In this document: in pieces, positions 4,028 through 52,167 of the stretch | Numbering within the stretch: position 1 is the first letter of the stretch | How the letters are laid out: each line of letters starts with the position of its first letter | Source of the DNA: a virus | Lineage: Duplodnaviria; Heunggongvirae; Uroviricota; Caudoviricetes | Strand: one strand, 5' to 3' | IMG/VR virus record: IMGVR_UViG_2703718869_000013 | Location: 33,127-97,126 of that record | DNA length: 64,000 nt | Position numbers and translations under genes: made by a program | The notes under the pieces: generated by a model | What the model was told of the DNA's origin: nothing | Database searches by the model: none | What the model saw: only the letters and a program-made list of their open reading frames with translations

Positions 4028-4062
4028 AGGAGGAGGCCGGAGAACTCCGGCCTTTAACTTGA

Positions 4063-4644
4063 ATGGCACCTATACCTTATGGGGTTTACAGCCAGGCTGA
4101 CGGTGTATCACCATTTCTGAAAGTTACTTTAACGAACTCTCAGTACCAGGTTACCGGATATATCAGCCAGGGAGCGGCAATGAACATGGCCCAGAATTGG
4201 GAAGCGCCGTTTACCGGTATGTCCATGGGATCTGTTTCTGGTGCTCTGGGTGGTTTTGTGCAAGTAGGTACTGAAACAACGTCGGTTGCCCGTTGGAATA
4301 GCTTAATGGTTTGGGAAGGGGGGACTCCGCCGACGTTCACGCTGCCTGTAACTTTCATTGCTTTGAACAATCCATTCATTGAAGTTTCAGGCGCTATCGC
4401 CGCGTTGACAGCCATGATTAGCCCGGAACTAAAAGCGGCCAATGTTGGTGGTCGAATCCCGGAGCGCGTGACGCTAAACATTGGTCGCCGGATCAACATC
4501 ACCGATGTCGCCATCCAGGACTTAAGTTTTGATCTCGATGCGCCAAGGGATAGTAATGGATATTTCCTGAAAAACACCGTCAACCTCCAGTTGACCGGTT
4601 CTTCGATATATAACAGCTCCGATATTGTTCGGGCGTTCCAGTAA
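4063..4644 (+). CDS. putative tail tube or tail structural protein
   Basis: 193 aa ORF directly after the sheath-like gene in the same operon; size and position only. Confidence 0.35.
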   Translation: MAPIPYGVYSQADGVSPFLKVTLTNSQYQVTGYISQGAAMNMAQNWEAPFTGMSMGSVSGALGGFVQVGTETTSVARWNSLMVWEGGTPPTFTLPVTFIALNNPFIEVSGAIAALTAMISPELKAANVGGRIPERVTLNIGRRINITDVAIQDLSFDLDAPRDSNGYFLKNTVNLQLTGSSIYNSSDIVRAFQ

Positions 4645-4655
4645 AAGGATTTTAT

Positions 4656-5165
4656 ATGGGACACAATAACACTAAGGGAAACCGTAAATTTATTAAGGGC
4701 CGCTATACTGCCAACGCGGCCAAAGGCGAACGACTGGTATCTTCTGAATTCCAGCTCACTTTTGCAGGCCGTGAAGATATCAGCGTACTGGTTCGTACGT
4801 CGCAAATTCCTGAAATGACCCGCGAGGATGTGGAGGACTATGGTCCGAATGGTGTGAAGTTCAACCAGCACGGACCAATTCGAAACTCTGGGGAAATCCA
4901 GGTCCAGTGCGTGGAGACTATCGAAGGCGATATTCTTCAGTTCATCAAGGATCGCATTGCGGCGAAGGACTATGTTGATATCACGATGGCTGCTACCCCT
5001 GAATCCAAATCTTCCGGGGTTAACGCTGTGACAAAAGCTGCTACAACAATTGAAATGTTGGACTGCAAAATCTACAGTGATGCAATCGACTTTAGTACCG
5101 AAGATGTGACTGCCGCTGTGCGCCCGTCACTTCGTATCGTTTACAACTGGATTGAGTGGGATTAA
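4656..5165 (+). CDS. putative tail structural protein
   Basis: 169 aa ORF, last gene of the + strand late operon; followed by a strong terminator. Confidence 0.35.
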   Translation: MGHNNTKGNRKFIKGRYTANAAKGERLVSSEFQLTFAGREDISVLVRTSQIPEMTREDVEDYGPNGVKFNQHGPIRNSGEIQVQCVETIEGDILQFIKDRIAAKDYVDITMAATPESKSSGVNAVTKAATTIEMLDCKIYSDAIDFSTEDVTAAVRPSLRIVYNWIEWD

Positions 5166-5184
5166 GAGTCACCCCTTGTATTTT

Positions 5185-5208
5185 AAAGCTCCTACGGGAG
5201 CTTTTTTG
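5185..5208 (+). terminator. rho-independent terminator of the late structural operon
   Basis: Stem aaagctcc / ggagcttt with loop tacg, followed by tttt. Confidence 0.65.
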
Positions 5209-5248
5209 TGCTTAAATTATGCCGGTATAGCGAAATTTTGAGCATATT

Positions 5249-5545
5249 ATGGAAATTGATTTTTCATACTCTCCTGAAACGATAGAACGAAGATTCGAAA
5301 TAATTGGATGCAAAACTATTTCAGAGGAGCATTATTGGATTCTCTATGATGCCAATACATGGTTATGTGCCTTAGCAGAATGTCGGCCATCGTTATGTGC
5401 AGGGGAGGGAGGACTTCGACATAAGGTGCTGGCTACACTTGAAGTGAACACGTTACGATATTGGTGTGTCGAAATACTTAGGGATAACAAAGAATTACAT
5501 TTATTATTGCTGAATAAGTGTGCGCCTCTGCGCAGGAAAGCATAA
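5249..5545 (+). CDS. hypothetical small protein (AT-rich island)
   Basis: 98 aa ORF in AT-rich DNA after the terminator; weak RBS; no recognisable family. Confidence 0.3.
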   Translation: MEIDFSYSPETIERRFEIIGCKTISEEHYWILYDANTWLCALAECRPSLCAGEGGLRHKVLATLEVNTLRYWCVEILRDNKELHLLLLNKCAPLRRKA

Positions 5546-5711
5546 GAAAACCCAACCGCCATACTGGAATTATCAGAAGAATATGTGCGGAAAGTTATAG
5601 CTAGCTATTGAAAAGCTAAAGTAGATCGGTTAGATTTACTTTACTCATCTACCATGCGTAGAAAGAGCGATCGAACCCGATACATAGCAATATGTGTCGG
5701 GTTCAGCTTTT

Positions 5712-6176
5712 TTATGTCCCAAGTGCTCTTTTTCTGCTTTGTTTGAGTGTTCTGATTTTACTGTCATAGGTTACAACATAGGCTGTTTTGAGAAGCCAAT
5801 AGTCTCTACGTGCGGATAGCACAACAACGTAGTTTTCACACTCGTTCCAGATTACCCACTCTTCAGTTGGTCCTCGTCTTTCAGACCAACATGATATATC
5901 GCAATGGTCATAATTCCTTATCATATGCGCGATCCAGCGGATCCGCTTACACCGTTCAAGATCTGGTATTCGTTCTTCTTCTATTTTTCCCTCTGATACT
6001 AAATGCCAAAATCCGAACTCTTTCCCATCATATTCCGGTGAATAACGTAATCGAACAGGGAGACCCTTAAACGTTATATTAGAGATTAAAATATCTTCTC
6101 TAACAACATCATATACATCGTCTATATACTCTTGCCAACTTCCATTGAAGTACAATAAATCTGGCATTTGAAGCAT
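5712..6176 (-). CDS. hypothetical protein, downstream partner of a coupled two-gene operon
   Basis: ATG at 6176-6174 preceded by GGGAGG; its start overlaps the stop of the upstream gene (TGATG); AT-rich; no family recognised. The listed ORF extends to 6191. Confidence 0.5.
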   Translation of the reverse strand: MLQMPDLLYFNGSWQEYIDDVYDVVREDILISNITFKGLPVRLRYSPEYDGKEFGFWHLVSEGKIEEERIPDLERCKRIRWIAHMIRNYDHCDISCWSERRGPTEEWVIWNECENYVVVLSARRDYWLLKTAYVVTYDSKIRTLKQSRKRALGT

Positions 6177-6880
6177 CAGCGAGCCTCCCACACGAAAATA
6201 TTAAATTTACTTTCTGTTGGAAGAGTGCTTTTTAGTAACTCCCTGTTTGTATGTGATTTTATCCTGTTTATGACTTGGATTTTTCCCGCGTTGCTATTCA
6301 TTCCTCGATGAACGTAGCCTAACGCACCAATGAAAAGATCCGTTAGCTGCAATTGTTGCACTTCATGAGATCGTATATGTTGAATTCTGTTTATCGACTC
6401 ATGATTGTAATCATAGCGATCATTGTGAAGAACTCCTCTTAATTTCTCAATTTTTTCAATACCTAAAGTATCTTTTATATCTAGGTAGATATTGTATGTG
6501 TTGTTACTTTCTATTATGTTTTTTAAGACATAAAAAAACATCTTATAATAGAAAGTATTATGATCTTGATGGAATCGAGCATGGTCCAGTTGCTCTTTAT
6601 CAGGAACAACAACACCTCTAAAGCGCAATGCTGGGTTGCTGAAGAAGTAATCTACGACCTCTAAGTAAAATTCAACTTTGGACGCAGATACTTTAGTCCA
6701 CTTGATTTCGAAATCAGGTTTTAAATTGTGTTTTAATTTTAATCCCTTGATGTCTCTAGCAATTTTTTTTGTGATAGTGCCAGGACACCAAAGCGCACCC
6801 AATACCATGACTTTATTATGATCATTTAGTAGGTGACAGGATTCATCGCAGAATACATTAAATGTTCTTCGGTTCAACAT
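6176..6880 (-). CDS. hypothetical protein with an N-terminal FNVFCDES motif (DUF3800-like, tentative)
   Basis: 234 aa; N-terminal hydrophobic strand followed by D-E-S as I remember for DUF3800-type proteins; AT-rich; coupled to the downstream gene. Confidence 0.45.
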   Translation of the reverse strand: MLNRRTFNVFCDESCHLLNDHNKVMVLGALWCPGTITKKIARDIKGLKLKHNLKPDFEIKWTKVSASKVEFYLEVVDYFFSNPALRFRGVVVPDKEQLDHARFHQDHNTFYYKMFFYVLKNIIESNNTYNIYLDIKDTLGIEKIEKLRGVLHNDRYDYNHESINRIQHIRSHEVQQLQLTDLFIGALGYVHRGMNSNAGKIQVINRIKSHTNRELLKSTLPTESKFNIFVWEAR

Positions 6881-7048
6881 GTTAACTCCACTTATTGTTA
6901 GGTAGAATTGTCCGTTAGTTGTTTATTAATTGCAATAATTGGACGTTCTGATTTGCTAACTACGTCATCTTACCAGGACGCCTATGAGTTTTCCTCATGG
7001 CAAACTAGAGGTGTTGAAAGTATGCATGGTTATAATTAGAGCAATCTA

Positions 7049-7894
7049 TCACCCTCTGAATCCTACCGGTATACCCCATTGTTCGTTATCTTTATTTTTG
7101 GCTAATACCGCATTAAGAGCTTCGTTTACCGTCATGCAATGCGGTAGATTATCGAAGTTTGATATCCAGCCAATATCAGGAGAACGCTTGTTCTTCAGGT
7201 AAGCATATTTCCGCGCTGCCGCCTCTACTTTCTGCTTGAACTCATGTTTTTGAGCGCGTTTTTTGGATAACCGCAGATTGTCAGCCTTTGCTTTTGCTTC
7301 AGCGATCCATGAAGTCAATTTTTTGAGTCTGGTCGTTCCGGCACCGCCGGAAACTGATCTTTTTGTTTTTTTAACTTGTGACTTCTTATTCTTTATTGCC
7401 ACGTCATCCTGACAGGGGGAGGGGGTATCATTTTGACATGGGGGTGTGGATAAAAAATTAAATAAAGCCAATGTCTTAGCGAGAACAGCTTTAACCTTGG
7501 TTGCCGCTGAAGAGATCTTTAATTTGCTTTCAATCAGCGCATTTTTGGCTTGTTGTGCGAAGGCCAAAAAGGATGGTGTAAACCGGTACAGGTTAGCGCG
7601 ACGTTCACGGTGATCGCCGATAACAATCTCTACAGACAGAATTCCTTTGTTTACAGCTTCACGGAATGCACGAACGACGGTTGATTGGCTATAACCAGTT
7701 TCTGCCGCGATCAGGCGGTGAGGCTTGTGAATGAAGTATTCACTGGTTGTTGCCGCTAGATTTGCACATTGCGACAGGATATGCCCGGCGCTACGAGATA
7801 GACCGGAGTGTGTTACAAAGCAGGCCAATTCATAGCCAGAAAAAGTAAAATCGCTCATCGTTATACAGCTCAGGAAAGTGACTTTAGCCAGCAT
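7049..7894 (-). CDS. repL: RepL-like lytic replication initiator
   Basis: 281 aa, immediately downstream of a KilA-N protein as in the P1 kilA-repL operon; identification by size, position and basic C-terminal half. Confidence 0.6.
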   Translation of the reverse strand: MLAKVTFLSCITMSDFTFSGYELACFVTHSGLSRSAGHILSQCANLAATTSEYFIHKPHRLIAAETGYSQSTVVRAFREAVNKGILSVEIVIGDHRERRANLYRFTPSFLAFAQQAKNALIESKLKISSAATKVKAVLAKTLALFNFLSTPPCQNDTPSPCQDDVAIKNKKSQVKKTKRSVSGGAGTTRLKKLTSWIAEAKAKADNLRLSKKRAQKHEFKQKVEAAARKYAYLKNKRSPDIGWISNFDNLPHCMTVNEALNAVLAKNKDNEQWGIPVGFRG

Positions 7895-7923
7895 TACAAT
7901 GCTGGTGGTTCTTACTACGTCTG

Positions 7924-8724
7924 TTAGCGCGTTGCCGCGACAGGTACCAGCACACCAGCATCAAGCAATCGCTTCATCAGCCACTGCTGACCTTTGCCGG
8001 TTATACGAGTCGTGAAAGAAATCCTGCTTCCATTGCTTGTATCGATCACGGTTTCTTTAAGGGTGAAATACCCACGGGATATGTATTCTTGTTTGGGGAC
8101 GTTCCTGCGTTCACCGGTTGCGATCAGAATTCCGTTATCACGCAACCAGGTGAAGAGATAGTTTTGGCCCAGGCCGAGCACTTTGGCATAGTTGCCGATT
8201 AGAACCCCGCTGGCGGTAGCAACGCGTTCGGCGAATTCGACTTTAGGCGCATCCATAAGCATTTTTTGCTCCAGCCGTTGCTTTTGCTCTGCCAGGTCGG
8301 CAGCCAAACGGAGAGCTTCAGGGAGACTCTGCGGAATAGCAGGTTGTAATCTTCCGGCTCGATAGTCGATAAATGTCTGGTTTACCTTCAGCCGAAACGC
8401 GGGAGAAATCCAGCCTGCGTACTCCACAGCGAGCAATTCATGGGCAAACGTACCGCCGCCACGGCCTTCGAACGAAACTATGCAATTCTGCATAGTTTCT
8501 TTTTCAAGCTCTTCGATGAGCTGTTTAGCTGACAGCGTTCTTAGCCATTGAGCTGGCGCTTTATGGGCACCGAGTCCGCTCGCTCTGTGTAGAGCATTAA
8601 GGTTGTAACGGCCAGCGCGGTCGGTCGTAATTTCAACACCACAAATAACGGGCAGAGTGGTTGAAGGATCGACATTTTGATGAAGGTTTGATATATTCAT
8701 ATCCGCATTGAATGTTTGTTGCAT
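7924..8724 (-). CDS. kilA: KilA-like protein (KilA-N domain plus ANT/KilA-C domain)
   Basis: 266 aa; N-terminal KilA-N-like segment (YNLNALHRASG...KAPAQWLRT); C-terminal segment shared with the four Ant paralogs (APKVEFAERV...GKGQQWL). Confidence 0.7.
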   Translation of the reverse strand: MQQTFNADMNISNLHQNVDPSTTLPVICGVEITTDRAGRYNLNALHRASGLGAHKAPAQWLRTLSAKQLIEELEKETMQNCIVSFEGRGGGTFAHELLAVEYAGWISPAFRLKVNQTFIDYRAGRLQPAIPQSLPEALRLAADLAEQKQRLEQKMLMDAPKVEFAERVATASGVLIGNYAKVLGLGQNYLFTWLRDNGILIATGERRNVPKQEYISRGYFTLKETVIDTSNGSRISFTTRITGKGQQWLMKRLLDAGVLVPVAATR

Positions 8725-8792
8725 TTTTTCTCCAAATTTGCATCAACCTTCAATCACCAGCTCGAAATGGTGATTCTTTGCACTTAGAAAAC

Positions 8793-8809
8793 GAAATTTA
8801 TTAGAGCAA
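8793..8809. promoter_or_regulatory. C1-operator-like site upstream of kilA
   Basis: aaatttattagagcaaa matches the reverse complement of the P1 C1 operator consensus ATTGCTCTAATAAATTT at 16 of 17 positions. Confidence 0.6.
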
Positions 8810-8888
8810 ATTTTTCTGACTCGATCCAGATCGGGTTGGACGATCTGCTCAGAAACCTGCCAGTTTGCTGGCAGGTTTTTTTCTTTTG

Positions 8889-9932
8889 TTAACCTATTGC
8901 TACTGGTTTTAACAAACCAGCATCAAGTAGCTTGCGAGTTAACCACTGCTGGCCTTTACCCGTTAATTGGGGCGTCAGCCGTATCTGGTAGCCATTTTCA
9001 TCATCCAGCACCACTTCTTTCACCGTGAAATACCCGGCGTTAATGTACTGCTGGCGCGGTACGTTTTTGCGCGCACCAAAAGCCATGAGAATGCCGTTCT
9101 GGCGCAACCATGAGAAAAGGGCGTTTTGCTTAAGTCCAACGACCTTTGCAAAGTTCCCGATCAGGATTCCATTAGCCGCTGATACCCGGTCGGCAAAATC
9201 GACTTTAGGGGCTGCGGCCACCAGCTGTTGTTCCAACTGCATTTTCTGTTCTGCCAACTCGGCAGCCAGGCGTAGAGCTTCTGGTAATGTTTGGGGGATC
9301 GATGGGGTAGGGGAGTTTGCCTGCTGCAATTCTTCCAGTTTGTCGATCAGCGAACGGCGGACCGCTTTTGACTCGCGCGCGGCGACTCGCAAGGCTTGTT
9401 TGTAGGTCATGGTGATGACCTCAAAAGAGCGCCCAGCCCTTGTGCCATGGGATTTTGCACTTTTTGTGTAAAATTCACCTTCAAGTTCATCGAGTATTTT
9501 TTCGATGAATTTATTGTTTCTAACCTCTGGTTCTCCACATAACTTGCGTGCCTCATTGACCATCTTCAACAATGTTTGGCTGTCGATTGTGTCTCCGGTG
9601 TTGGGGATGACATTCACGGCTGGTGTTGGCGTAGCTGACGTAACAGGTGCTGGTTTCTCAACATTCAAATTTTTACCGGTCACTCTATGTGCCTCCTTTC
9701 TCATTTCTGCTGCCACCGTTGCGTAACGTAGACGTCCTTGTTCAATCAAATAATCCCTGATCTCGGCTATCAGTAGCCTGTTGATCACAGCCTTATCTGT
9801 TCGGGTATAAAAACGCCTGGTTATCATGAAATAGTTGGCAATTGCGCCGGGGATCTCCCGTGTCGGCATACAGGCAGTATGCAGGGCGATTGCTTCGGCT
9901 ATGTCATTACGGGTGACGAGAGGTTTTTTCAT
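8889..9932 (-). CDS. ant: antirepressor Ant (immI-like module A)
   Basis: 347 aa with a conserved ANT C-terminal domain; start overlaps the stop of a 73-aa icd-like ORF (ATGA), indicating translational coupling. Confidence 0.75.
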   Translation of the reverse strand: MKKPLVTRNDIAEAIALHTACMPTREIPGAIANYFMITRRFYTRTDKAVINRLLIAEIRDYLIEQGRLRYATVAAEMRKEAHRVTGKNLNVEKPAPVTSATPTPAVNVIPNTGDTIDSQTLLKMVNEARKLCGEPEVRNNKFIEKILDELEGEFYTKSAKSHGTRAGRSFEVITMTYKQALRVAARESKAVRRSLIDKLEELQQANSPTPSIPQTLPEALRLAAELAEQKMQLEQQLVAAAPKVDFADRVSAANGILIGNFAKVVGLKQNALFSWLRQNGILMAFGARKNVPRQQYINAGYFTVKEVVLDDENGYQIRLTPQLTGKGQQWLTRKLLDAGLLKPVAIG

Positions 9933-38017: not shown

Positions 38018-38239
38018 ATGGTTAATGCCAATCCTTGCGCACGCCAAGAATTCATCTGGCGTTTCTATTCCTGTAAAAAACACCACTATCACTTCGTTAT
38101 CGCAGCAACTGAAGACGAAGCACGCTCTCAATTGCCTGATGGCCCCTGCATTTTTACTGCCCGTTTTTCAACTAACTCGCGCAATTCACTTAGTTACTGG
38201 AGCCTCCCCTTCTCTGCCGACGTTCAGGGGGGTTTATGA
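38018..38239 (+). CDS. icd: Icd-like small protein (module B)
   Basis: 73 aa, stop overlaps the ant start; RBS overlapped by the ACTTGTG target heptamer. Confidence 0.6.
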   Translation: MVNANPCARQEFIWRFYSCKKHHYHFVIAATEDEARSQLPDGPCIFTARFSTNSRNSLSYWSLPFSADVQGGL

Positions 38240-39279
38240 AAAAACCTCTCGTCACCCGTAATGACATAGCCGAAGCGATCGCCCTGCATACTGCCTGTAT
38301 GCCGACACGGGAGATCCCCGGCGCAATTGCCAACTATTTCATGATAACCAGGCGTTTTTATACCCGAACAGATAAGGCTGTGATCAACAGGCTACTGATA
38401 GCCGAGATCAGGGATTATTTGATTGAACAAGGACGTCTACGTTACGCAACGGTGGCAGCAGAAATGAGAAAGGAGGCACATAGAATGACCAGTAATAATT
38501 TGAATGTTAAAAAACCAGCATCTGTTGCTTCAGCTACGCCATCACCAGCTGTGAATGTTATCTCCAACACTGGAGATACAATCGACAGCCAGACGCTGTT
38601 AAAGATGGTTAATGAGGCGCGCAAGCTATGTGGGGAAAATGAGATCCGCAATAACGATTTTCTCAATAGAATTAAGGATGAACTTGATGGGGAATTTTAC
38701 GAAACTTTCGTAAAATCCCATGGCACAAGGGCCGGGCGCTCTTTTGAGGTCATAACCATGACCTACAAACAAGCCCTGCGAGTCGCCGCGCGCGAGTCAA
38801 AAGCGGTCCGCCGTTCGCTGATCGACAAACTGGAAGAATTGCAGCAGGCAAACTCCCCTACCCCATCGATCCCCCAAACATTACCAGAAGCCCTACGTCT
38901 GGCTGCCGAGTTAGCAGAACAGAAAATGCAGTTGGAACAACAGCTGGTGGCCGCAGCCCCTAAAGTCGATTTTGCTGACCGGGTATCAGCGGCTAATGGA
39001 ATCCTGATCGGGAACTTTGCAAAGGTCGTTGGACTTAAGCAAAACGCCCTTTTCTCATGGTTGCGCCAGAACGGCATTCTCATGGCTTTTGGTGCGCGCA
39101 AAAACGTACCGCGCCAGCAATACATCAACGCCGGGTATTTCACGGTGAAAGAAGTGGTGCTGGATGATGAAGATGGTTACCAGATACGGCTGACGCCCCA
39201 ATTAACGGGTAAAGGCCAGCAGTGGTTGACGCGTAAACTGCTCGATGCAGGTTTATTAAAGCCTGTAGCGGCTGAGTGA
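38236..39279 (+). CDS. ant: antirepressor Ant (module B)
   Basis: 347 aa, about 90 percent identical to the module A Ant by eye; conserved ANT C-terminal domain. Confidence 0.75.
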   Translation: MKKPLVTRNDIAEAIALHTACMPTREIPGAIANYFMITRRFYTRTDKAVINRLLIAEIRDYLIEQGRLRYATVAAEMRKEAHRMTSNNLNVKKPASVASATPSPAVNVISNTGDTIDSQTLLKMVNEARKLCGENEIRNNDFLNRIKDELDGEFYETFVKSHGTRAGRSFEVITMTYKQALRVAARESKAVRRSLIDKLEELQQANSPTPSIPQTLPEALRLAAELAEQKMQLEQQLVAAAPKVDFADRVSAANGILIGNFAKVVGLKQNALFSWLRQNGILMAFGARKNVPRQQYINAGYFTVKEVVLDDEDGYQIRLTPQLTGKGQQWLTRKLLDAGLLKPVAAE

Positions 39280-39354: not shown

Positions 39355-42085
<2,731 letters not shown>

Positions 42086-42387
42086 TTAATTAGAACAATT
42101 CACATCATGTTTGAACGGAATTTAACACTAGTCACTTGTTAAGGATTACCAATGAACAAGCTATCTATGTGGTGTTTCGCTGTTCAAGTGTCAGCGAAAT
42201 ATTGAAATATATTAGTGCAATAACATTTCATCGGGCGCCGATTAGATACGGCGTGGAAAAGGTGGAAGGCAAAAGCTATGACCGACTACGCCGGACGTGA
42301 AATAATATGTCCACACTATCTGATACAATAAAACCGAATAGGACATAACTTCGACGTCAAAGCCTTGGCACAGGCTGGAGAGAAAAC

Positions 42388-42636
42388 TTGAAAAAGCGAT
42401 ACTACACAGTAAAGCATGGGACGCTACGAGCATTACAAGAGTTTGCTGACAAGCATAACGTTGAGGTGCGCAGGGAAGGGGGAAGTAAAGCTCTGCGCAT
42501 GTACCGTCCGGACGGGAAATGGCGTACGGTCGTCGATTTCAAAACTAACAGTGTTCCCCAGGGCGTCCGCGATCGGGCATTCGAAGAATGGGAGCAGATC
42601 ATCATAGATAATGCTCTGCTACTAAATGCTGACTGA
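42388..42636 (+). CDS. hypothetical small basic protein
   Basis: 82 aa; faint resemblance to HicA/YcfA-type small RNA-binding toxins (GSKALRMYRPDGKWRTVV) but lacks the His and any adjacent antitoxin ORF. Confidence 0.3.
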   Translation: MKKRYYTVKHGTLRALQEFADKHNVEVRREGGSKALRMYRPDGKWRTVVDFKTNSVPQGVRDRAFEEWEQIIIDNALLLNAD

Positions 42637-42674
42637 GTTTAATATTACAATATTATCTGGGAGATAAATGCATA

Positions 42675-43409
42675 TTATTTTCCAGATAATAACTGATGTT
42701 TTGCATATTCACGTGGCGTGCAATTATAATATTGCCTGAACAGGCACACAAAGTACGATGTACTACTAAAGCCACAGCTTTCTGATACTTGTTTGACTGA
42801 ATGATTTTGCTTTAGTAATTTAATAGCGAAAGCCATCCGTGTATCAAGTAATAACTTACTGAAGGAGGTGTTTTCCAATAATAGTTTTTTCTTTATTAAG
42901 CTTTCACTCATGTAGAGATAATCGGTTAGGTCTCTTAGTTTCCAGTGTTTAGATACATCTGAAAGAAATATGCTGCGCACTTTCCCTGAGAAAGTGGGCA
43001 TACCAGACGTAAGAAATGCTCTAAAGTTATCAACATCATTAAAAATTGAGAGTAATGAAAAAGTTACTGCCTCCCTAAAATCAGAATGGATATGATTTTG
43101 GTCGCTTATATTATCGATCATCCTGATTAATAAATCAGGATAGGCAAAAGACTTTTTTAGCAAATGTGGACACTTATCCAGCGATTGGTTTCCAAGGTTG
43201 TTGCTGCATAATAAATAGTTTCTTACGGTATTATCATTGAGTTCGAATTCTATATATTTGTCTGAATACATTTTTAAGCATTCATGCTCAGAATGCTTAA
43301 GCAACAACACATCACCGTAATTTAATATCAAGAAATCCTTAAGAAATTGAAAGCTTATAGGTTTCTTTATGAGTATGAAGTAACAAACTGCTGACATGGC
43401 CACCACCAT
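42675..43409 (-). CDS. AraC-family transcriptional regulator (AppY/EnvY-like)
   Basis: C-terminal helix-turn-helix region LIKKKLLLENTSFSKLLLDTRMAFAIKLL...GFSSTSYFVCLFRQYY closely resembles E. coli AppY as I recall it; AT-rich gene. Confidence 0.8.
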   Translation of the reverse strand: MVVAMSAVCYFILIKKPISFQFLKDFLILNYGDVLLLKHSEHECLKMYSDKYIEFELNDNTVRNYLLCSNNLGNQSLDKCPHLLKKSFAYPDLLIRMIDNISDQNHIHSDFREAVTFSLLSIFNDVDNFRAFLTSGMPTFSGKVRSIFLSDVSKHWKLRDLTDYLYMSESLIKKKLLLENTSFSKLLLDTRMAFAIKLLKQNHSVKQVSESCGFSSTSYFVCLFRQYYNCTPREYAKHQLLSGK

Positions 43410-43535
43410 TCTAAAGAGGCTTTGAATAAGAATAGAGATAGCCAGGCTCAGAAATCAAGAAGTTGTGTAAAAATAAAATTATTGATTTATGTCACATTTT
43501 TTGATTGTTTTAATTGATGTTTTTCAATATTATCA

Positions 43536-43559
43536 CAAACAAACAAACAAACAAACAAA
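43536..43559. repeat. tetranucleotide microsatellite (CAAA)6 in a divergent promoter region
   Basis: Six perfect tandem CAAA units between the divergently transcribed AraC-like and EAL genes. Confidence 0.95.
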
Positions 43560-43661
43560 TAAATTGACATTTAATCTACAAAAGTAGAGTGTAACTCTTG
43601 TAAATATAGGGGGCTCGTTATCTGAGCAAAATCAAGCAATTTAAAACTTGAGGGTGGGGAT

Positions 43662-44351
43662 ATGGAAGTTATCTACATTGCAGAACCAATCATTTCTACG
43701 AGCACGAACAAGTTGATTGCAGTAGAAGTGTTAAGCAGATTTCGCTCCAAAGATGGTGTCGCTCTTCCTACTCAAAGAGTATTGGGTATGTTTACCAATA
43801 AGATGAAGATTAATTTACTTAAATCACAACTTAACACAATAATGAAATACAAGTGTTTTTTTGAACGCCATAATATACTATGTTCTATTAATGTAGATTA
43901 TGATACATGTATATATATATACAGTAATAAACAAACTCAAGAGTTAATTAAAAACAATAAATTTATAGCTCTTGAGATATCAGAAAACTACCCTGATTTA
44001 AGCGATGAGGATTACGTTATACCCTTTCTCCTGACTTTGACAGACTATGTTTGGCTTGATGATTTTGGAAGTGGCAACACCACCATGAAAACATTAATTA
44101 AAAATAAATACCATGCAATAAAACTTGATAAGGCCTTTTTCCAAGAATATGGGACTAATCCTCATTTTGATGTCATTATTAGTAATTTAAAAAAATTATG
44201 CCCGAATATCATCGCTGAAGGTGTTGAAAACATTGAGTGTCATAAGCTATCAAAAGGGATAGGGCTATGGGGTGCCCAGGGATATTTTTTTCCATCAATT
44301 CCTCTGGTGGAGATTGAGTCCATAGATAGTAAGTGGCTATCAGATTTATGA
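43662..44351 (+). CDS. stand-alone EAL-domain c-di-GMP phosphodiesterase (PdeH/YhjH-like)
   Basis: 229 aa with conserved EAL catalytic motifs: EVL, EISE, DDFGSGNTT, KLDK, EGVE, QGY; architecture and length like E. coli PdeH. Confidence 0.8.
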   Translation: MEVIYIAEPIISTSTNKLIAVEVLSRFRSKDGVALPTQRVLGMFTNKMKINLLKSQLNTIMKYKCFFERHNILCSINVDYDTCIYIYSNKQTQELIKNNKFIALEISENYPDLSDEDYVIPFLLTLTDYVWLDDFGSGNTTMKTLIKNKYHAIKLDKAFFQEYGTNPHFDVIISNLKKLCPNIIAEGVENIECHKLSKGIGLWGAQGYFFPSIPLVEIESIDSKWLSDL

Positions 44352-44404
44352 GATGCAGAGAGTTAGGATATTGATATGAACGTCTAAGCACCTCATTACC
44401 ATGC

Positions 44405-45049
44405 TTAAAAGATGTTATCCTTACCTGTTAATTTACCTTGAGGAACTTTAGCGAGCTCCATCCGATAAAATGCTCTTATCATATTTACAAATGGTTCATA
44501 TGGTGAATATCTGTTGTCTTGTTCAGTAATGGTGTTTGTCATTGTCCTGATGAAGTCTGCGCTTGCCACGTTGTTGTATTCCGTTGCGAAGCAGCATAAC
44601 AACGTCAGAACGTGCTCTGTCGTTATTTCGCTCCAGTTGATGTTGAAAAACTCATCGCCTTTTTTATCGTGTTCGGAATCGAAGATGCTTTGGTGGAGGA
44701 TGTATTTGCCGGATTCCTTGCGCGGTAACTTGATTGCTTTCTGGCGTTCCAGCTCCTTATAAATCTGCATTGCCTCAATTAGTACCGGCCTGCCGTTCAT
44801 GAAGGGATCGCGCAACCTTACACGCTGGCCAACTCGACCAGTAATAAAGCTGTTTTCCTCTTCCACCAGCACGATAAAACCCTTCTCCTCTTTTTCTCGC
44901 AATTCGCGCAGCAGCTGGAGTTCCATATCGCGGCGGCGTTCAGGGTAGCTGGTCCGCTCAGCCATTATCAGCTCGTTATTGATCCATGCAGCAGTCATTG
45001 ACGCCGGTTTGCCGACGCTCATCGAAACAACGCATATTTTCTTATCCAT
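44405..45049 (-). CDS. hypothetical protein
   Basis: 214 aa from ATG at 45049 preceded by GGGGGAG; the listed ORF extends to 45196; no family recognised. Confidence 0.45.
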   Translation of the reverse strand: MDKKICVVSMSVGKPASMTAAWINNELIMAERTSYPERRRDMELQLLRELREKEEKGFIVLVEEENSFITGRVGQRVRLRDPFMNGRPVLIEAMQIYKELERQKAIKLPRKESGKYILHQSIFDSEHDKKGDEFFNINWSEITTEHVLTLLCCFATEYNNVASADFIRTMTNTITEQDNRYSPYEPFVNMIRAFYRMELAKVPQGKLTGKDNIF

Positions 45050-45309
45050 AGCTCCCCCTACAAAAAAGAAAAGCCACCAGCGGCGGCTTAGCAATACAAC
45101 TGAAGGTAGCGCCCGGTACTCAGACTGTGCCGTCCATGGAATATTTGAAAAGGGATCCATCCGTACCGGGCGTGTGATGATTTTGACTGAAGTCACTTGT
45201 CAGTTGTCAATTATTTATTATTAAAAATAATATATTTATTAGTGCATACAAATAATACACTAAGTGTGCACATTGCAACCTCAGAGAGGAAACATTCAAC
45301 CAGATTGTT

Positions 45310-45326
45310 ATTGCTCTAATAAATTT
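45310..45326. promoter_or_regulatory. C1-operator-like site upstream of module C
   Basis: ATTGCTCTAATAAATTT, perfect match to the consensus, followed by a degenerate inverted copy. Confidence 0.7.
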
Positions 45327-45496
45327 GATTTATTGGGGCAAATAAACTACTATTGGACGCCAGACTATTGATCTTCCTGTTGTTCAGGCTTATAGTTCCT
45401 ACGCCGTAGCAAATTCTGCGACCGGGTTTAGCAGCCTGAATGTACATGCGGACAACCGCAGATTTCCGATATTGCGGTATTTTTATGTCCGTAAAA

Positions 45497-45577
45497 CCGC
45501 GTTACGCCCGAATTATGGTGGGGCGTGATGGGGAGGCTTCGGCCTGCTGGTTTCATGTACGCCAGTCTGCTAACCCC
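45497..45577 (+). ncRNA. c4: c4-like antisense RNA (module C), approximate ends
   Basis: Same core as module B; a' CATGTAC (45554-45560) with targets GTACATG at 45442-45448 and 45626-45632; b elements TAGCAG / CTGCTA instead of TGACAG / CTGTCA. Confidence 0.6.
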
Positions 45578-45643
45578 GTCACGTCCTGCCACCCGTTTAG
45601 CAGCGGGTAGCAGGTTGTTAAACCTGTACATGAGGCCGTAACT

Positions 45644-45865
45644 ATGGTTAATGCCAATCCTTGCGCACGCCCTGAATTTATCTGGCGCTTTTACTCCTGC
45701 CAGAAACGCCACTATCACTTCGTTATTGCACCGACAGAAGATGAGGCACGTTCTCAGCTTCCGGATGCTCCCTGCATTTTCTCCGCACGCTTTTCTACTG
45801 ACTCGCGCAATTCTCTCAGTTACTGGTGCCTCCCTGTTAACGCTTCTGTTCAGGAGGGGCTATGA
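45644..45865 (+). CDS. icd: Icd-like small protein (module C)
   Basis: 73 aa paralog; stop overlaps the ant start. Confidence 0.6.
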   Translation: MVNANPCARPEFIWRFYSCQKRHYHFVIAPTEDEARSQLPDAPCIFSARFSTDSRNSLSYWCLPVNASVQEGL

Positions 45866-46974
45866 GAACGTCATTAGTCACCCGTGAAGAGATGATCGAG
45901 GCAATTGAACAGCACACAATCTGTATCAGCACCAGGGATATACCAGGCGTTATTGCCAACTACTTCATGATCACCAAACAACTTTACCGGAGAAAGGACA
46001 AGAACGCGGTTCACCGTATCCTGTTGTCTGATATCCGCGAATACCTGCTCGAACAGGGTCATCTGAATTACGCAACCGTCGCAGCCGAAGCACGCAAGGA
46101 GGCACACAGAATGAAAGCAACTAACGTTAAATCAGAAAAAATTTATGCACCTTCAGTTCAGGAATCGGAACTGGTGGTTGTTCAGAATCAGCCGGATGAA
46201 ATTCCCGTTCTGGAATGGCAGGGAGTACGTGTCGTAACAACCGAAACTCTTGCTAGAGGGTATGGGGTCGATGAAGCCAATATTCGCAACAATTTGTCTC
46301 GCAACCTTGACCGCTTTGAAGAAGGTAAGCATTACTTTCTTCTAACTGGTTTAAAATTAAGAGAATTTAAGAACAGAGTAACCGGAAGTTACTCTGTTGG
46401 TAAGAACGCCAGAAGCCTTACACTCTGGACAGAGCGCGGCGCTGCACGCATGTCTAAGATCGTGGACACAAATGAAGCATGGGCATTCTTTGAAAAACTG
46501 GAAGACAGCTACTTCCGGCAAAAAGAACAGCAACCGGTCGCAATCCCTCAGACGCTTCCCGAAGCTCTGCGCCTGGCTGCCGAGCTGGCTGAACAAAAGC
46601 AACTTCTGGAACAGAAAGCCCACCAGCTAAATCAGCAGCTGGTGGCCGCCGCCCCTAAAGTCGATTTTGCCGACCGGGTATCAGGGGCCAAGGGGATCCT
46701 GATTGGAAATTTTGCAAAGGTTGTTGGGCTTAAGCAAAACGCGTTGTTTGCCTGGTTACGGGGGAACGGCATCCTGATAGCGTCCGGTGGACGTAAAAAT
46801 GTGCCGTTCCAGCAATACATCAACGCCGGGTATTTCACGGTGAAAGAAGTGGTGCTGGATGATGAAGATGGTTACCAGATACGGCTGACGCCCCAATTAA
46901 CGGGTAAAGGCCAGCAGTGGTTGACGCGTAAACTGCTCGAAGCTGGCTTGTTAAAACCGGTGGCGGCTGAATGA
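45862..46974 (+). CDS. ant: antirepressor Ant, type 2 (module C)
   Basis: 370 aa; different central domain from modules A/B (AntA/ORF6N-like, PVLEWQGVRVVTTETLARGYG) plus the shared ANT C-terminus. Confidence 0.75.
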   Translation: MRTSLVTREEMIEAIEQHTICISTRDIPGVIANYFMITKQLYRRKDKNAVHRILLSDIREYLLEQGHLNYATVAAEARKEAHRMKATNVKSEKIYAPSVQESELVVVQNQPDEIPVLEWQGVRVVTTETLARGYGVDEANIRNNLSRNLDRFEEGKHYFLLTGLKLREFKNRVTGSYSVGKNARSLTLWTERGAARMSKIVDTNEAWAFFEKLEDSYFRQKEQQPVAIPQTLPEALRLAAELAEQKQLLEQKAHQLNQQLVAAAPKVDFADRVSGAKGILIGNFAKVVGLKQNALFAWLRGNGILIASGGRKNVPFQQYINAGYFTVKEVVLDDEDGYQIRLTPQLTGKGQQWLTRKLLEAGLLKPVAAE

Positions 46975-47213
46975 TTAAAAAAGGCGGCCTTTCGGCCGCC
47001 AATGATGTCACGGAGTCTATAATGGCAATGTCTTCGTAGTTGACTAAAGCCACAACTCAATTATAACAATTAATTATAGCAATAGTGGCTATTTTATTTA
47101 TCGCGAATCACATTTTTTCTCTTCAGTACATGTGTGCTATACTCCTTCTTGATTGATTGGATGCGGAATACAAACCCGCTCTTTTGTGCAGCCTGGCTCC
47201 TTGCCAGGCTTTT

Positions 47214-47525
47214 TTATTTCATCATGGAAGCTGTTAACGCTTTGGACCTTGCTGAACTGATTGAGAGGGCTTTGTCAACGTGCCCCAAAAATTCGCCAAA
47301 CTCAGACATCACTTTAGCAAAACCGCGCCGTGCTTCTTCCTCGGTGGCGTTCATCACGAAATGTTCAGCACCACGCATACTTTTGACAGGGAACGCAACG
47401 GATATTGAGTCAATATCAGGCATTCTATCGCTCAGCTTTACAGTGACAATGACGGCTGGCGACTGAATATTAGTGCTTACAGACAGCACTACATATTTTC
47501 CGTCGATGTTGAAATCCTTTCTCAT
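47214..47525 (-). CDS. hypothetical protein downstream of cre
   Basis: 103 aa with good coding character; the overlapping + strand ORF 47134-47466 is judged spurious. Confidence 0.45.
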   Translation of the reverse strand: MRKDFNIDGKYVVLSVSTNIQSPAVIVTVKLSDRMPDIDSISVAFPVKSMRGAEHFVMNATEEEARRGFAKVMSEFGEFLGHVDKALSISSARSKALTASMMK

Positions 47526-51048: not shown

Positions 51049-52167
51049 TTATTCAGCCGCCACCGGTTTTAACAAGCCAGCATCGAGCAGTTTACGCGTC
51101 AACCACTGCTGGCCTTTACCCGTTAATTGAGGCGTCAACCGTATCTGGTAGCCATCTTCATCATCCAGCACCACTTCTTTCACCGTGAAATACCCGGCGT
51201 TGATGTACTGCTGGAACGGCACATTTTTACGTCCACCGGACGCTATCAGGATGCCGTTCTCCCGTAACCAGACAAACAGCGCGTTTTGCTTAAGTCCAAC
51301 AACCTTTGCAAAATTCCCAATCAGGATCCCTTTAGCTACTGATACCCGGTCGGCAAAATCGACTTTAGGAGCGGCGGCCACCAGCTGCTGATTTAGCTGG
51401 TGGGCTTTCTGTTCCAGAAGTTGCTTTTGTTCAGCCAGTTCGGCAGCCAGGCGTAGGACTTCAGGAAGCGTCTGGGGGATTGCGATCGGTTGCTGTTCTT
51501 TTTGTCGGAAGTAGCTGTCTTCCAGTTTTTCAAAGAATGCCCATGCCTGATCGGTTTCGAGCATTTTAGCGTGGCGGGCTGCGCCGCGTTCTGTCCAGAG
51601 GGTGAGTGAGCGAACATTGCGAGCAATTTTTACAGAGTAGTTTAAAGCTACTCTGTGCTTCAACTCGCGCAATGATTCTCCTTCAACTTTGAAAAAGTGC
51701 TTCCCTTCAACAAAGCGTACTTTGTTCTCATGATGATTTTGGCGAATACGGATTGTTTCTGTCCCATACCCTCTCGCAAGAGTCTCGGTTGTCACTACAC
51801 GCACTCCCTGCCATTCCAGAACGGGAATTTCATCAGACTGATTCTGAACAACCACCAGCTCCGATTCCTGAACTGAAGGTGCATGAATTTTTTCTAATTT
51901 AACGTTATTTGCTTTCATTCTGTGTGCCTCCTTGCGTGCTTCGGCTGCGACGGTTGCGTAATTCAGATGACCCTGTTCGAGCAGGTATTCGCGGATATCA
52001 GACAACAGGATACGGTGAACCGCGTTCTTGTCCTTTCTCCGGTAAAGTTGTTTGGTGATCATGAAGTAGTTGGCAATAACGCCAGGTATATCCCTGGTGC
52101 TGATACAGATTGTGTGCTGTTCAATTGCCTCGATCATCTCTTCACGGGTGACTAATGACGTTCTCAT
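51049..52167 (-). CDS. ant: antirepressor Ant, type 2 (module D)
   Basis: 372 aa, close paralog of the module C Ant. Confidence 0.75.
   Translation of the reverse strand: MRTSLVTREEMIEAIEQHTICISTRDIPGVIANYFMITKQLYRRKDKNAVHRILLSDIREYLLEQGHLNYATVAAEARKEAHRMKANNVKLEKIHAPSVQESELVVVQNQSDEIPVLEWQGVRVVTTETLARGYGTETIRIRQNHHENKVRFVEGKHFFKVEGESLRELKHRVALNYSVKIARNVRSLTLWTERGAARHAKMLETDQAWAFFEKLEDSYFRQKEQQPIAIPQTLPEVLRLAAELAEQKQLLEQKAHQLNQQLVAAAPKVDFADRVSVAKGILIGNFAKVVGLKQNALFVWLRENGILIASGGRKNVPFQQYINAGYFTVKEVVLDDEDGYQIRLTPQLTGKGQQWLTRKLLDAGLLKPVAAE

What the first reader, a model, noticed from the sequence alone, without database searches (positions are those of the whole stretch)
42675..44351. Cargo module: AppY-like AraC regulator divergent from a catalytically intact PdeH-like EAL phosphodiesterase
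The plus-strand gene encodes a stand-alone EAL domain with all catalytic motifs preserved (EVL, EISE, DDFGSG, KLDK, EGVE, QGY), resembling E. coli PdeH. The divergent minus-strand gene resembles the horizontally acquired regulator AppY. Both are AT-rich and lie between prt and an ant module, where P1 carries ref, mat and res/mod. A phage-plasmid-borne PDE could lower host c-di-GMP in lysogens, affecting motility, biofilm or c-di-GMP-dependent processes.
Basis: partly seen in the sequence, partly recalled or inferred. Interest (0 to 1): 0.7.

Follow-up and report, generated by a model that had tools for sequence, protein, structure and literature searches.

The report
P1 phage-plasmid AraC–EAL cargo cassette
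In the slot where phage P1 keeps its restriction system, this P1-type phage-plasmid carries a two-gene cassette: a transcription regulator and an enzyme predicted to destroy the bacterial lifestyle signal c-di-GMP. The cassette is real, widespread and unstudied, but it is built from known kinds of parts.

Summary
Two divergent genes lie in a 1.9-kb segment with 33% GC, the most AT-rich stretch of the window. It sits exactly where P1 has res/mod, between lxc and mat.

The plus-strand gene encodes a compact stand-alone EAL protein of 229 aa. All 12 canonical catalytic residues are present, and they are kept in relatives down to about 33% identity. dN/dS is 0.1–0.2 and the predicted structure is confident. 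It is most likely an active c-di-GMP phosphodiesterase.

It is not a PdeH orthologue (26% identity, below the curated cut-off). Its closest solved relatives are the non-catalytic anti-FlhDC factors STM1697 and YdiV, so that mode of action is the main rival.

The regulator is closer to YdeO (35% over the full length) than to AppY, and its fold resembles Rns/CsvR/ToxT.

The divergent pair recurs on P1-like, IncFII and fimbrial plasmids, in about 3% of complete E. coli genomes and in a laboratory P1vir stock. In Escherichia plasmids it is more common than P1 res.

A (CAAA)n tract in the shared control region varies between 2 and 6 copies among otherwise identical sequences.

No function has been tested, and I found no literature on it. 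Verdict: a new member of known kinds, of moderate interest.

The parts
42633..44539 (.). AT-rich segment with no homology to P1. It replaces P1 positions 3337-9753 (the 3' end of mat, res, and mod with IS5).
   Evidence: blastn against P1 NC_005856 gives breakpoints at window 42632/42633 and 44539/44540. GC is 33.0%, the lowest 1.9-kb stretch of the window.
42388..42636 (+). lxc (bof), left flank; a conserved P1 gene
   Evidence: ORF of 82 aa. phrog_2160 matches its full length at 190 bits. 96.7% identical to P1 lxc. Annotated as lxc/bof in the related loci L001 and L002.
42651..42691 (.). 17-bp-stem inverted repeat between the lxc stop and the regulator stop; a possible bidirectional terminator
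   Evidence: Terminator-like hit. The number of such hits in the region is no higher than in shuffled sequence, so this is only a candidate.
42675..43397 (-). AraC/XylS-type regulator of 240 aa (the ORF runs on to 43409)
   Evidence: Pfam HTH_18 and HTH_AraC. Best NCBIfam hit is YdeO at 155 bits, below the 348 cut-off. phrog_1450 at 225 bits. YdeO 35% over the full length. AF2 pLDDT 87.7, with Foldseek hits to CsvR, Rns, ToxT and GadX. dN/dS 0.05-0.20.
43398..43661 (.). Divergent control region of 264 bp with 30.7% GC. The half nearest the regulator (about 43428-43520, including the 23-mer at 43481-43503) is conserved across lineages whose synonymous sites are saturated.
   Evidence: Alignment of 8 alleles. 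The 23-mer is unique in the window. The sigma-70 scan found no consensus promoter here.
43535..43563 (+). Tetranucleotide microsatellite (ACAA)7.2, equal to (CAAA)6 plus TAAA, directly upstream of a TTGACA hexamer at 43564-43569
   Evidence: TRF hit, and the only short-period repeat in the 64 kb. Copy number is 2, 3, 4 or 6 among otherwise identical intergenic sequences.
43650..43659 (+). Purine-rich ribosome-binding site GAGGGTGGGG, ending 2 nt before the EAL ATG
   Evidence: Read directly from the sequence.
43662..44351 (+). Stand-alone EAL-domain protein of 229 aa, predicted c-di-GMP phosphodiesterase
   Evidence: Pfam EAL 64.8 bits. 12/12 catalytic residues. phrog_32988 full length. AF2 pLDDT 92.3. 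Foldseek hits to YdiV, STM1697 and YahA. dN/dS 0.12-0.35.
44405..45160 (-). mat (maturation control), right flank. Its last 132 nt (44405-44539) belong to the non-P1 segment.
   Evidence: phrog_1837. RefSeq calls in L032 and L033. P1 homology begins at 44540.

Best explanation
This is a self-contained accessory cassette (a moron-like cargo unit of foreign origin) in the variable mat-lxc slot of a P1-type phage-plasmid, where P1 itself carries the EcoP1I res/mod system.

Shown: the plus-strand gene encodes a compact, single-domain EAL protein with a complete catalytic site.

Inferred:
- Once made, the enzyme hydrolyses c-di-GMP to pGpG without any sensory input domain. Control would therefore be transcriptional.
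- The divergently encoded AraC-type regulator (YdeO/AppY/GadX/Rns-like) acts on the shared 264-bp AT-rich control region. It activates or de-silences the cassette, and it may also reach host acid-resistance or motility genes, as AppY, PsrA/B and PatE do.
- In lysogens the added enzyme lowers c-di-GMP. That would favour motility and reduce c-di-GMP-dependent matrix and surface glycans.
- The variable (CAAA)n tract between the conserved upstream block and the EAL-proximal promoter region may tune expression between lineages.
For: Gene identity and intactness:
- All 12 catalytic residues are present, and 40 of 108 stand-alone relatives share the full set.
- In a 25-sequence family alignment reaching down to 24% identity, the invariant columns are almost exclusively the catalytic motifs: E22, N77, E105, E108, D133, D134, K154, E186 and Q206.
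- The motifs match those of solved, active PdeL/YahA.
- The model is confident (pLDDT 92.3, pTM 0.89) and its best PDB matches are all EAL or EAL-like domains.
- dN/dS is 0.1-0.2 for both genes.

Linkage of the two genes:
- The same divergent pair is kept in three lineages on different replicons: P1-like elements, IncFII plasmids (EAL 68%, regulator 79%) and plasmids next to usher fimbriae (69%/67%).
- The control region has blocks conserved despite saturated dS.
- A more distant EAL lineage (43%) is again embedded among AraC-type (Rob-like) regulators.

Cargo status and spread:
- Exact replacement of res/mod and the lowest GC in the window.
- 123 full copies in PLSDB plasmids, with 146 matching Escherichia records, against 52 Escherichia records carrying P1 res.
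- 146-203 of 5,426 complete E. coli genomes carry it.

Precedents:
- Prophage-borne AraC regulators rewire acid resistance, biofilm and motility (AppY: PMC10057817; PsrA/B and PatE: PMC10877973).
Against: - There are no biochemical or expression data for this protein.
- Its closest solved relatives by sequence and fold are the non-catalytic STM1697 and YdiV.
- Two consensus features deviate. The N-terminal 'QP' motif is 'EP', although E is the rule in this subfamily (73 of 108 sequences). Loop 6 reads DFGSGNTT rather than the DFG(T/A)GYSS consensus, which I recall from memory.
- No consensus promoter was found in the control region.
- The regulator-to-enzyme link rests only on conserved synteny. 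Regulator homologues also occur without an EAL gene: next to a K88-type fimbrial gene and near motA.
- The copy in phage Ro157c2YLVW has a 1-nt deletion that truncates it before EGVE, so the gene is dispensable for the phage. This could also be a sequencing error.
Confidence: 0.6

Rival explanations
1. The EAL protein works mainly by protein-protein contact, like its closest relatives YdiV/RflP and STM1697. It would bind FlhD and switch off flagellar class II genes in lysogens, with or without also hydrolysing c-di-GMP (a 'trigger enzyme').
For: - STM1697 is the best sequence hit in the PDB (99.6 bits, against 36 for PdeL/YahA).
- Reciprocally, STM1697's best hit among the references is this protein.
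- The best fold matches are YdiV (TM 0.88) and the STM1697-FlhD complex (TM 0.85/0.92).
- The hydrophobic core of the STM1697 interface is conservatively kept: F160->F159, L173->I172, L172->V171, V147->I146 (mapped, with interface residues from PMC5622320).
- A deposited record annotates an 87% identical copy as ydiV.
- The AppY family of regulators is already linked to FlhDC turnover (PMC10057817).
Against: - YdiV and STM1697 have lost the catalytic residues (5/12 and 8/12). This protein and its whole clade keep 12/12.
- The three polar FlhD contacts of STM1697 are lost: K167->N, K175->S, H176->N.
- Position 171 is V, G or E within the clade, so no interface is conserved.
- The retained F159 lies in the general K-x-D-x-(S/A)-F EAL motif, so it does not discriminate.
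Confidence: 0.17
2. The protein binds c-di-GMP but hydrolyses it poorly. It would act as a receptor or conditional enzyme, like YkuI-type or LapD-type EAL domains, and report c-di-GMP to a phage or host partner.
For: Loop 6 (DFGSGNTTMKTL) departs from the canonical sequence and the 'QP' glutamine is replaced. The protein has no sensory domain.
Against: All metal-binding and general-base residues are retained under purifying selection. PdeH, an active enzyme, also has a non-canonical loop 6, DDFGTGMANF.
Confidence: 0.1
3. The cassette is a counter-defence device. The EAL enzyme would degrade cyclic-nucleotide immune signals such as those of CBASS, rather than housekeeping c-di-GMP.
For: It sits in a phage genome in a slot otherwise used for defence genes: res/mod in P1 and a RelA/SpoT-family gene in SJ46.
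Against: There are no significant PADLOC hits. No EAL domain is known to me to act on CBASS signals (from memory). The same pair occurs on non-phage IncFII and fimbrial plasmids. The divergent AraC-type regulator fits lysogenic-conversion cargo better.
Confidence: 0.03
4. The cassette is decaying or neutral hitch-hiking DNA with no current function.
For: One phage copy is frameshifted. IS elements interrupt or flank some copies.
Against: dN/dS is 0.05-0.35 for both genes over deep divergence. Both genes are intact in the vast majority of the more than 120 complete copies. The exact protein is recorded in 364 index blocks of public assemblies.
Confidence: 0.03

Closest known systems
PdeH (YhjH) of E. 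coli and Salmonella, the stand-alone EAL c-di-GMP phosphodiesterase of the flagellar regulon
   Same: It is a single-domain EAL protein of similar size with the catalytic motifs intact. It is the best NCBIfam model hit. The expected mode of action is the same: constitutive hydrolysis controlled at the level of transcription.
   Different: Identity is only 26%, the score of 93 bits is below the 190 cut-off, and it falls in a separate clade. PdeH has QP, KIA and QGW where this protein has EP, KLD and QGY. The gene is plasmid/phage-borne with its own AraC-type partner, rather than a chromosomal flagellar-regulon gene.
STM1697 and YdiV/RflP (STM1344), EAL-like anti-FlhD4C2 factors
   Same: They are the closest solved relatives by sequence and by fold. 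They share the compact domain, the 'AEP' N-terminal motif (STM1697) and the GxGN-x-TMK-like loop (YdiV).
   Different: Those proteins lack catalytic residues and neither bind nor cleave c-di-GMP (PMC5622320). This protein keeps 12/12. Their polar FlhD contacts are not conserved here.
YdeO, AppY and GadX of E. coli K-12, and the prophage-encoded PsrA, PsrB and PatE of EHEC
   Same: They are AraC/XylS regulators of about 240-250 aa encoded on AT-rich, horizontally acquired DNA. YdeO is 35% identical over the full length, and the AppY and GadX C-terminal domains are about 40% identical. The family includes prophage-borne members that rewire acid resistance, type III secretion, biofilm and motility (PMC10057817, PMC10877973).
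   Different: The score is below every equivalog cut-off. The AppY motif ATGSCWGM is absent from the control region. The targets are unknown. I could not compare directly with PsrA/B or PatE, because I did not obtain their sequences.
Rns, CsvR and ToxT, fatty-acid-responsive AraC virulence regulators
   Same: They are the best full-length structural matches (E about 1e-12 to 1e-13 over about 250 aligned columns) and match in sequence at 76-77 bits. Close homologues of the regulator lie next to fimbrial genes.
   Different: Identity is only 22-23%. The global TM-score is about 0.44 because the domain orientation differs. The ligand-pocket residues were not examined.
P1 EcoP1I res/mod locus (the mat-lxc variable slot)
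   Same: The insertion slot and flanking genes are identical. The cassette behaves as an allelic alternative to res/mod across P1-like elements.
   Different: The content is unrelated and has no recognisable defence protein.
Promoter-proximal tetranucleotide tracts that phase-vary expression, such as the TAAA tract upstream of Neisseria nadA (recalled from memory)
   Same: A 4-nt repeat lies just upstream of a -35-like hexamer, and its copy number differs among otherwise identical alleles.
   Different: No effect on expression has been shown. Only 2-6 copies were seen. Such control is unusual in E. coli.

Membership tests
Catalytically competent EAL-domain c-di-GMP phosphodiesterase | EAL domain (PF00563) above the gathering score | tested here: met
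   64.8 bits against a cut-off of 31.3, covering profile positions 14-233 of 236.
Catalytically competent EAL-domain c-di-GMP phosphodiesterase | Catalytic, metal-binding and substrate-binding residues: E(AL), R, N, ExxE, DD, KxD, EGVE, Q | tested here: met
   12/12 present and aligned with solved PdeL/YahA. They are invariant across the family alignment.
Catalytically competent EAL-domain c-di-GMP phosphodiesterase | Canonical N-terminal QP motif and loop 6, DFG(T/A)GYSS | tested here: inconclusive
   The motif is EP rather than QP, and loop 6 is DFGSGNTT. E is the majority residue in this subfamily (73/108). Active PdeH also has a non-canonical loop 6.
Catalytically competent EAL-domain c-di-GMP phosphodiesterase | Hydrolysis of c-di-GMP to pGpG | not testable with these tools
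   Needs an enzyme assay.
PdeH (YhjH) orthologue | NCBIfam equivalog NF008617 at or above its cut-off | tested here: not met
   93.3 bits against 190.
PdeH (YhjH) orthologue | Closest relationship to PdeH among stand-alone EAL proteins | tested here: not met
   26% identity and 77 bits, lower than to STM1697 or YdiV. PdeH is in a separate clade of the NJ tree, which was not bootstrapped.
YdiV/STM1697 anti-FlhD4C2 EAL-like factors | Closest sequence and fold similarity | tested here: met
   STM1697 99.6 bits and YdiV 78.7 bits. TM-scores 0.85-0.92.
YdiV/STM1697 anti-FlhD4C2 EAL-like factors | Degenerate catalytic site (no c-di-GMP binding or hydrolysis) | tested here: not met
   The window protein has 12/12, STM1697 8/12 and YdiV 5/12.
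YdiV/STM1697 anti-FlhD4C2 EAL-like factors | FlhD-contact residues (STM1697 F160, L172, L173, K167, K175, H176) | tested here: inconclusive
   The hydrophobic residues are conservatively kept (F159, V171, I172). The three polar contacts are lost (N166, S174, N175). Mapping from the alignment, with interface residues from PMC5622320. These positions are not conserved within the clade.
YdiV/STM1697 anti-FlhD4C2 EAL-like factors | Binding to FlhD and repression of class II flagellar genes | not testable with these tools
   Needs an interaction assay. The structure tool folds single chains only.
AraC/XylS family, YdeO/AppY/GadX subgroup | C-terminal double helix-turn-helix domain | tested here: met
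   HTH_18 50.7 bits and HTH_AraC 38.5 bits. GadX C-terminal domain 39-40% identical with TM 0.89.
AraC/XylS family, YdeO/AppY/GadX subgroup | Orthology to YdeO or AppY | tested here: not met
   YdeO model 155 bits against 348. YdeO is 35% identical over the full length. AppY matches only residues 112-235.
Known anti-phage defence systems (PADLOC) | A match to any defence-system protein model | tested here: not met
   No significant hit for either protein or for the flanking genes. The only match was 13.9 bits, E=0.006.
P1 (Punavirus) mat-lxc variable cargo slot | Flanked by lxc and mat, with P1 homology breaking at the slot borders | tested here: met
   The same arrangement is seen in Ro157c2YLVW, P1vir OP279344 and O111 plasmids.

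The most novel reading that the evidence does not exclude
The cassette could be a defence-like 'second-messenger depletion' module that took over the restriction slot of P1. By lowering c-di-GMP, the plasmid-borne enzyme would switch off c-di-GMP-dependent surface glycans that other phages need. One example is the NfrB/DgcJ-dependent receptor pathway of N4. Extra copies of seven host phosphodiesterase genes are known to make E. coli resistant to N4 (PMC7553319, PMC8669469, PMC8669472). Lysogens would thereby be protected from superinfection. The hypervariable (CAAA)n tract would act as a heritable expression dial.

A second unexcluded reading is that this clade is the catalytically intact sister of the STM1697 and YdiV lineages and couples c-di-GMP hydrolysis to FlhDC binding.
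Probability: 0.15. Interest if true: 0.75.

Novelty: new member of a known kind. Interest (0 to 1): 0.45.

Why it matters
P1-like phage-plasmids are common in E. coli from humans and livestock, including STEC O111. This cassette is more frequent in sequenced Escherichia plasmids than the textbook P1 res gene, yet every copy is annotated only as 'helix-turn-helix' and 'EAL domain-containing'.

If the enzyme is active, about 3% of complete E. coli genomes carry a mobile c-di-GMP phosphodiesterase outside the described chromosomal network. It could shift motility, biofilm matrix, host colonisation and susceptibility to c-di-GMP-dependent phages.

The protein is also a catalytically intact close relative of the degenerate anti-FlhDC factors. 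That makes it useful for asking how those factors evolved.

A sequenced laboratory P1vir stock carries the cassette, so the experiments are easy to set up.

Tried and rejected
- **Defence system:** the PADLOC models gave nothing.
- **RNA elements:** an Rfam E-value scan of 41500-47500 found no c-di-GMP riboswitch or other RNA in the cassette. It found only the neighbouring C4 RNA.
- **Promoters and terminators:** the scan gave no more hits than shuffled sequence, and none in the control region. I therefore name no promoter.
- **AppY motif:** ATGSCWGM is absent from the control region.
- **Other copies of the conserved block:** the 23-mer of the control region does not recur elsewhere in the window.
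- **Other species:** the scan of one genome per species found no relative, and the family alignment was too diverse for a pattern search. The taxonomic origin of the AT-rich DNA therefore remains open. The nearest non-Escherichia relatives, at about 33%, are from Pantoea and Erwiniaceae.
- **Already named?** PdeU1, PdeU2 and PdeU3 of Cimdins et al. have different motifs (QP, EVLIR, ELTE, DDFGTGYAT) and are not this protein. The paper that defines PdeW and PdeX (Povolotsky and Hengge 2016) is not held. Identity with those named proteins could not be excluded from text. The 43% lineage is only on 3 plasmids.
- **Literature:** searches linking P1-like elements or phage-plasmids with EAL or c-di-GMP returned nothing relevant.
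- **A 206-aa gene beside a regulator homologue near motA:** it is not an EAL relative.
Full report
**What is there.** The window holds two divergent ORFs at the coordinates given. One is on the minus strand at 42675..43409 (244 aa), with a probable true start at 43397 giving 240 aa, as called in near-identical copies. The other is on the plus strand at 43662..44351 (229 aa) and is preceded by the ribosome-binding site GAGGGTGGGG. Pfam assigns an AraC-type double helix-turn-helix to the first and an EAL domain to the second, both above gathering scores. The segment is strikingly AT-rich. The stretch without P1 homology, 42633-44539, has 33.0% GC against a window median of 47.8%, and it is the lowest 1.9-kb stretch in the 64 kb.

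**Genomic setting.** The window is a P1-type (Punavirus) phage-plasmid. The best matches are phage vB_EcoM-Ro157c2YLVW (99.5% identity across the cassette) and P1-like plasmids of STEC O111, which show the same gene order. In the P1 reference the order is cre-c8-ref-mat-res-mod-lxc-ulx-darB-prt.

Alignment to that reference shows four differences:
- P1 3337-9753 (the last 132 nt of mat, res, and mod with IS5) is replaced by the cassette.
- darB is deleted except for its first 144 nt.
- ulx has an internal deletion.
- ref is replaced by a c4-icd-ant cassette. The C4 antisense RNA lies at 45511-45596 (Rfam, 71.7 bits).

The meaningful statement is that the cassette occupies the res/mod slot between lxc and mat. 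Other P1-like elements carry other genes in this slot, such as a RelA/SpoT-family gene in SJ46, or nothing.

**The EAL protein.** All twelve canonical catalytic, metal-binding and substrate-binding positions are present: E22, R26, N77, E105, E108, D133, D134, K154, D156, E186, E189 and Q206. They align one to one with the motifs of the solved active enzyme PdeL/YahA.

An exhaustive HMMER search found only 98 representative proteins (one per cluster at 50% identity) at E<=1e-10, nearly all stand-alone proteins of 220-280 aa. I aligned 108 proteins: the full-length stand-alone hits from both protein searches, four reference sequences and the window protein. Of these, 40 keep 12/12 residues and 27 keep 11/12.

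In a 25-sequence family alignment reaching 24% identity, the invariant columns are essentially the catalytic motifs. This is the pattern expected if catalysis is the conserved function. dN/dS between alleles is 0.12-0.35. The AlphaFold model is confident (pLDDT 92.3, pTM 0.89).

Two features deviate from the textbook signature. The N-terminal 'QP' motif is 'EP', which is the majority state in this subfamily. Loop 6 is DFGSGNTT.

**Which family.** The protein is not a PdeH orthologue. Identity is 26% (77 bits), the NCBIfam score is 93 against a cut-off of 190, and PdeH falls in a separate clade of a neighbour-joining tree that was not bootstrapped.

The closest solved proteins, by sequence and by fold, are the EAL-like anti-FlhD4C2 factors:
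- STM1697: 99.6 bits, TM 0.85/0.92.
- YdiV: 78.7 bits, TM 0.88.

Active EAL domains such as YahA score only about 35 bits and TM 0.76-0.79. STM1697's own best match among the references is this protein rather than YdiV. In the tree, the window protein and its E. coli relatives form a clade of fully intact enzymes. STM1697 and YdiV sit in clades of degenerate proteins (8/12 and 5/12).

I mapped the published STM1697-FlhD interface (PMC5622320) onto the protein. The hydrophobic positions are conservatively retained (F159, V171, I172, I146). The three polar contacts are lost (N166, S174, N175). These positions vary within the clade. I therefore rank FlhD binding as the main rival rather than the leading model. 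One GenBank record (Salmonella phage SJ1) already labels an 87% identical copy 'ydiV'.

**The regulator.** The best model hit is YdeO (155 bits, below its cut-off of 348). BLAST gives 35% identity to YdeO over 233 aa. AppY matches only the C-terminal 125 aa at 41%. The PHROG family phrog_1450, of unknown function, matches at 225 bits.

The model (pLDDT 87.7) aligns over its full length with CsvR, Rns and ToxT, and its C-terminal half aligns with GadX. This places it among the AT-rich-DNA-binding regulators that include prophage-encoded AppY, PsrA/B and PatE. Those proteins are known to rewire acid resistance, secretion, biofilm and motility (PMC10057817, PMC10877973). dN/dS is 0.05-0.20.

**Evidence that the two genes are a unit.** The same divergent pair is found in three lineages:
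- P1-like elements, at 86-100% protein identity.
- IncFII plasmids, with the EAL protein at 68% and the regulator at 79%.
- Plasmids where the pair lies beside a chaperone-usher fimbrial operon, at 69% and 67%.

Synonymous sites between these lineages are saturated (dS > 1.4). Even so, the regulator-proximal half of the intergenic region keeps long identical blocks, for example ATTGAT..A..TCACATTTTTTG at 43481-43503.

A more distant EAL lineage (43%) lies between two Rob-like AraC regulators next to tibC and an autotransporter. Regulator homologues also occur alone, next to a K88-type fimbrial gene and near motA. Alleles reassort: the O111 plasmid has a regulator 99% identical to the window's but an EAL protein only 86% identical.

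**Distribution.**
- Full copies occur in 122 of 5,426 complete E. coli genomes, partial matches in 146, and the wider family in 203. Nearly all are on plasmids.
- In PLSDB, 123 plasmids hold the full cassette and 146 Escherichia records match it. P1 res is in 108 plasmids, of which 52 are Escherichia.
- The exact protein of the window is recorded in 364 index blocks of public assemblies.
- A laboratory P1vir stock (OP279344) carries the cassette in place of res/mod.
- All annotations are generic. Literature searches found no study of it.

**A variable repeat in the control region.** (ACAA)7.2, equal to (CAAA)6 plus TAAA, lies at 43535-43563 directly upstream of a TTGACA hexamer. It is the only short-period microsatellite in the window. 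In copies whose remaining intergenic sequence is identical, the CAAA count is 3, 4, 4, 4, 6 and 6, as well as 6 in this window. It is 2 in slightly diverged alleles and 0 in the 86% allele. This is the signature of slipped-strand mutation. Whether it changes expression is untested.

**Mechanism.**
- Shown: gene content, an intact catalytic signature, purifying selection, conserved pairing, and exact replacement of res/mod.
- Inferred: the enzyme hydrolyses c-di-GMP constitutively once made. Its level is set by the AraC-type regulator acting on the shared AT-rich, probably H-NS-silenced, control region. Lysogens then have lower c-di-GMP, with effects on motility, matrix and c-di-GMP-dependent glycans.

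Increased dosage of host phosphodiesterase genes makes E. coli resistant to phage N4 (PMC7553319). This gives a concrete, testable reason why such a gene might sit in a slot otherwise used for restriction. I give this only about 15% probability.

**Verdict.** The finding is real and correctly spotted. The labels 'PdeH-like' and 'AppY-like' should become 'stand-alone EAL of the PdeH/STM1697/YdiV radiation with an intact active site' and 'YdeO/AppY-family regulator'. The parts are known kinds, and their combination as a common, unstudied P1 cargo cassette is a new member of those kinds. I score interest as moderate (0.45).

Noticed in passing
window 43535-43563; also L001, L027, L032-L039, L041: The tetranucleotide tract (CAAA)n in the divergent control region has 6 copies here. 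It has 2, 3, 4 or 6 copies in otherwise identical intergenic sequences from other isolates, and none in the 86% allele. It is the only microsatellite in the 64 kb.
   Followed up: yes
window 42077-42360: Relative to P1, darB is deleted except for its first 144 nt, and ulx has an internal deletion of about 364 bp. This element therefore lacks res/mod, DarB and Ulx together. STEC O111 plasmid p99_1145-3 has a similar gene order, including a short methyltransferase (darB-like) remnant next to prt.
   Followed up: partly
window 45248-46976: A c4-icd-ant immunity-type cassette sits where P1 has ref. It comprises C4 antisense RNA at 45511-45596, its a1/b1 targets at 45390-45442, icd at 45644-45865 and ant at 45862-46974.
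   Followed up: partly
window 51049-52167(-), 38236-39279(+), 8898-9932(-), 7933-8400(-): There are four further antirepressor (Ant) paralogues in the window, 88%, 57%, 55% and 57% (partial) identical to the Ant at 45862-46974. That is an unusually high number of ant genes for one element.
   Followed up: no
L002 (OP279344.1, 'P1 isolate del res del mod'): A laboratory P1vir stock used in Argonaute studies carries the AraC-EAL cassette (86-87% protein identity) in place of res/mod. Some 'P1vir' stocks therefore differ from the reference P1 at this locus.
   Followed up: partly
L001 (NC_050153.1), equivalent to window 44189: The copy in phage Ro157c2YLVW has a single-base deletion at gene position 528, which truncates the EAL protein before the EGVE and QGY motifs. 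It is annotated as 199 aa. This is either a pseudogene or a sequencing error.
   Followed up: yes
L033 (NZ_CP077484.1) compared with the window: The cassette is mosaic. The O111 plasmid's regulator is 99% identical to the window's, but its EAL protein is only 86% identical and matches the common P1vir-type allele. This implies recombination inside the cassette.
   Followed up: partly
L005-L010; L019-L022; L023-L026: A 43%-identical EAL lineage lies between two Rob-like AraC regulators, next to tibC and an autotransporter, on rare plasmids. Homologues of the regulator also occur without an EAL gene, next to a K88-type fimbrial subunit gene and within a few kb of motA.
   Followed up: partly
H124 (OQ595196.1, Salmonella phage SJ1): An 87%-identical copy is annotated 'ydiV: putative anti-FlhC(2)FlhD(4) factor'. 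The protein keeps all the catalytic residues that YdiV lacks, so this label is probably misleading.
   Followed up: yes
window 44405-44539: The last 44 codons of mat lie inside the AT-rich non-P1 segment. The Mat C-terminus therefore differs from P1 Mat, and Mat length varies (214, 250 or 251 aa) among related elements.
   Followed up: no
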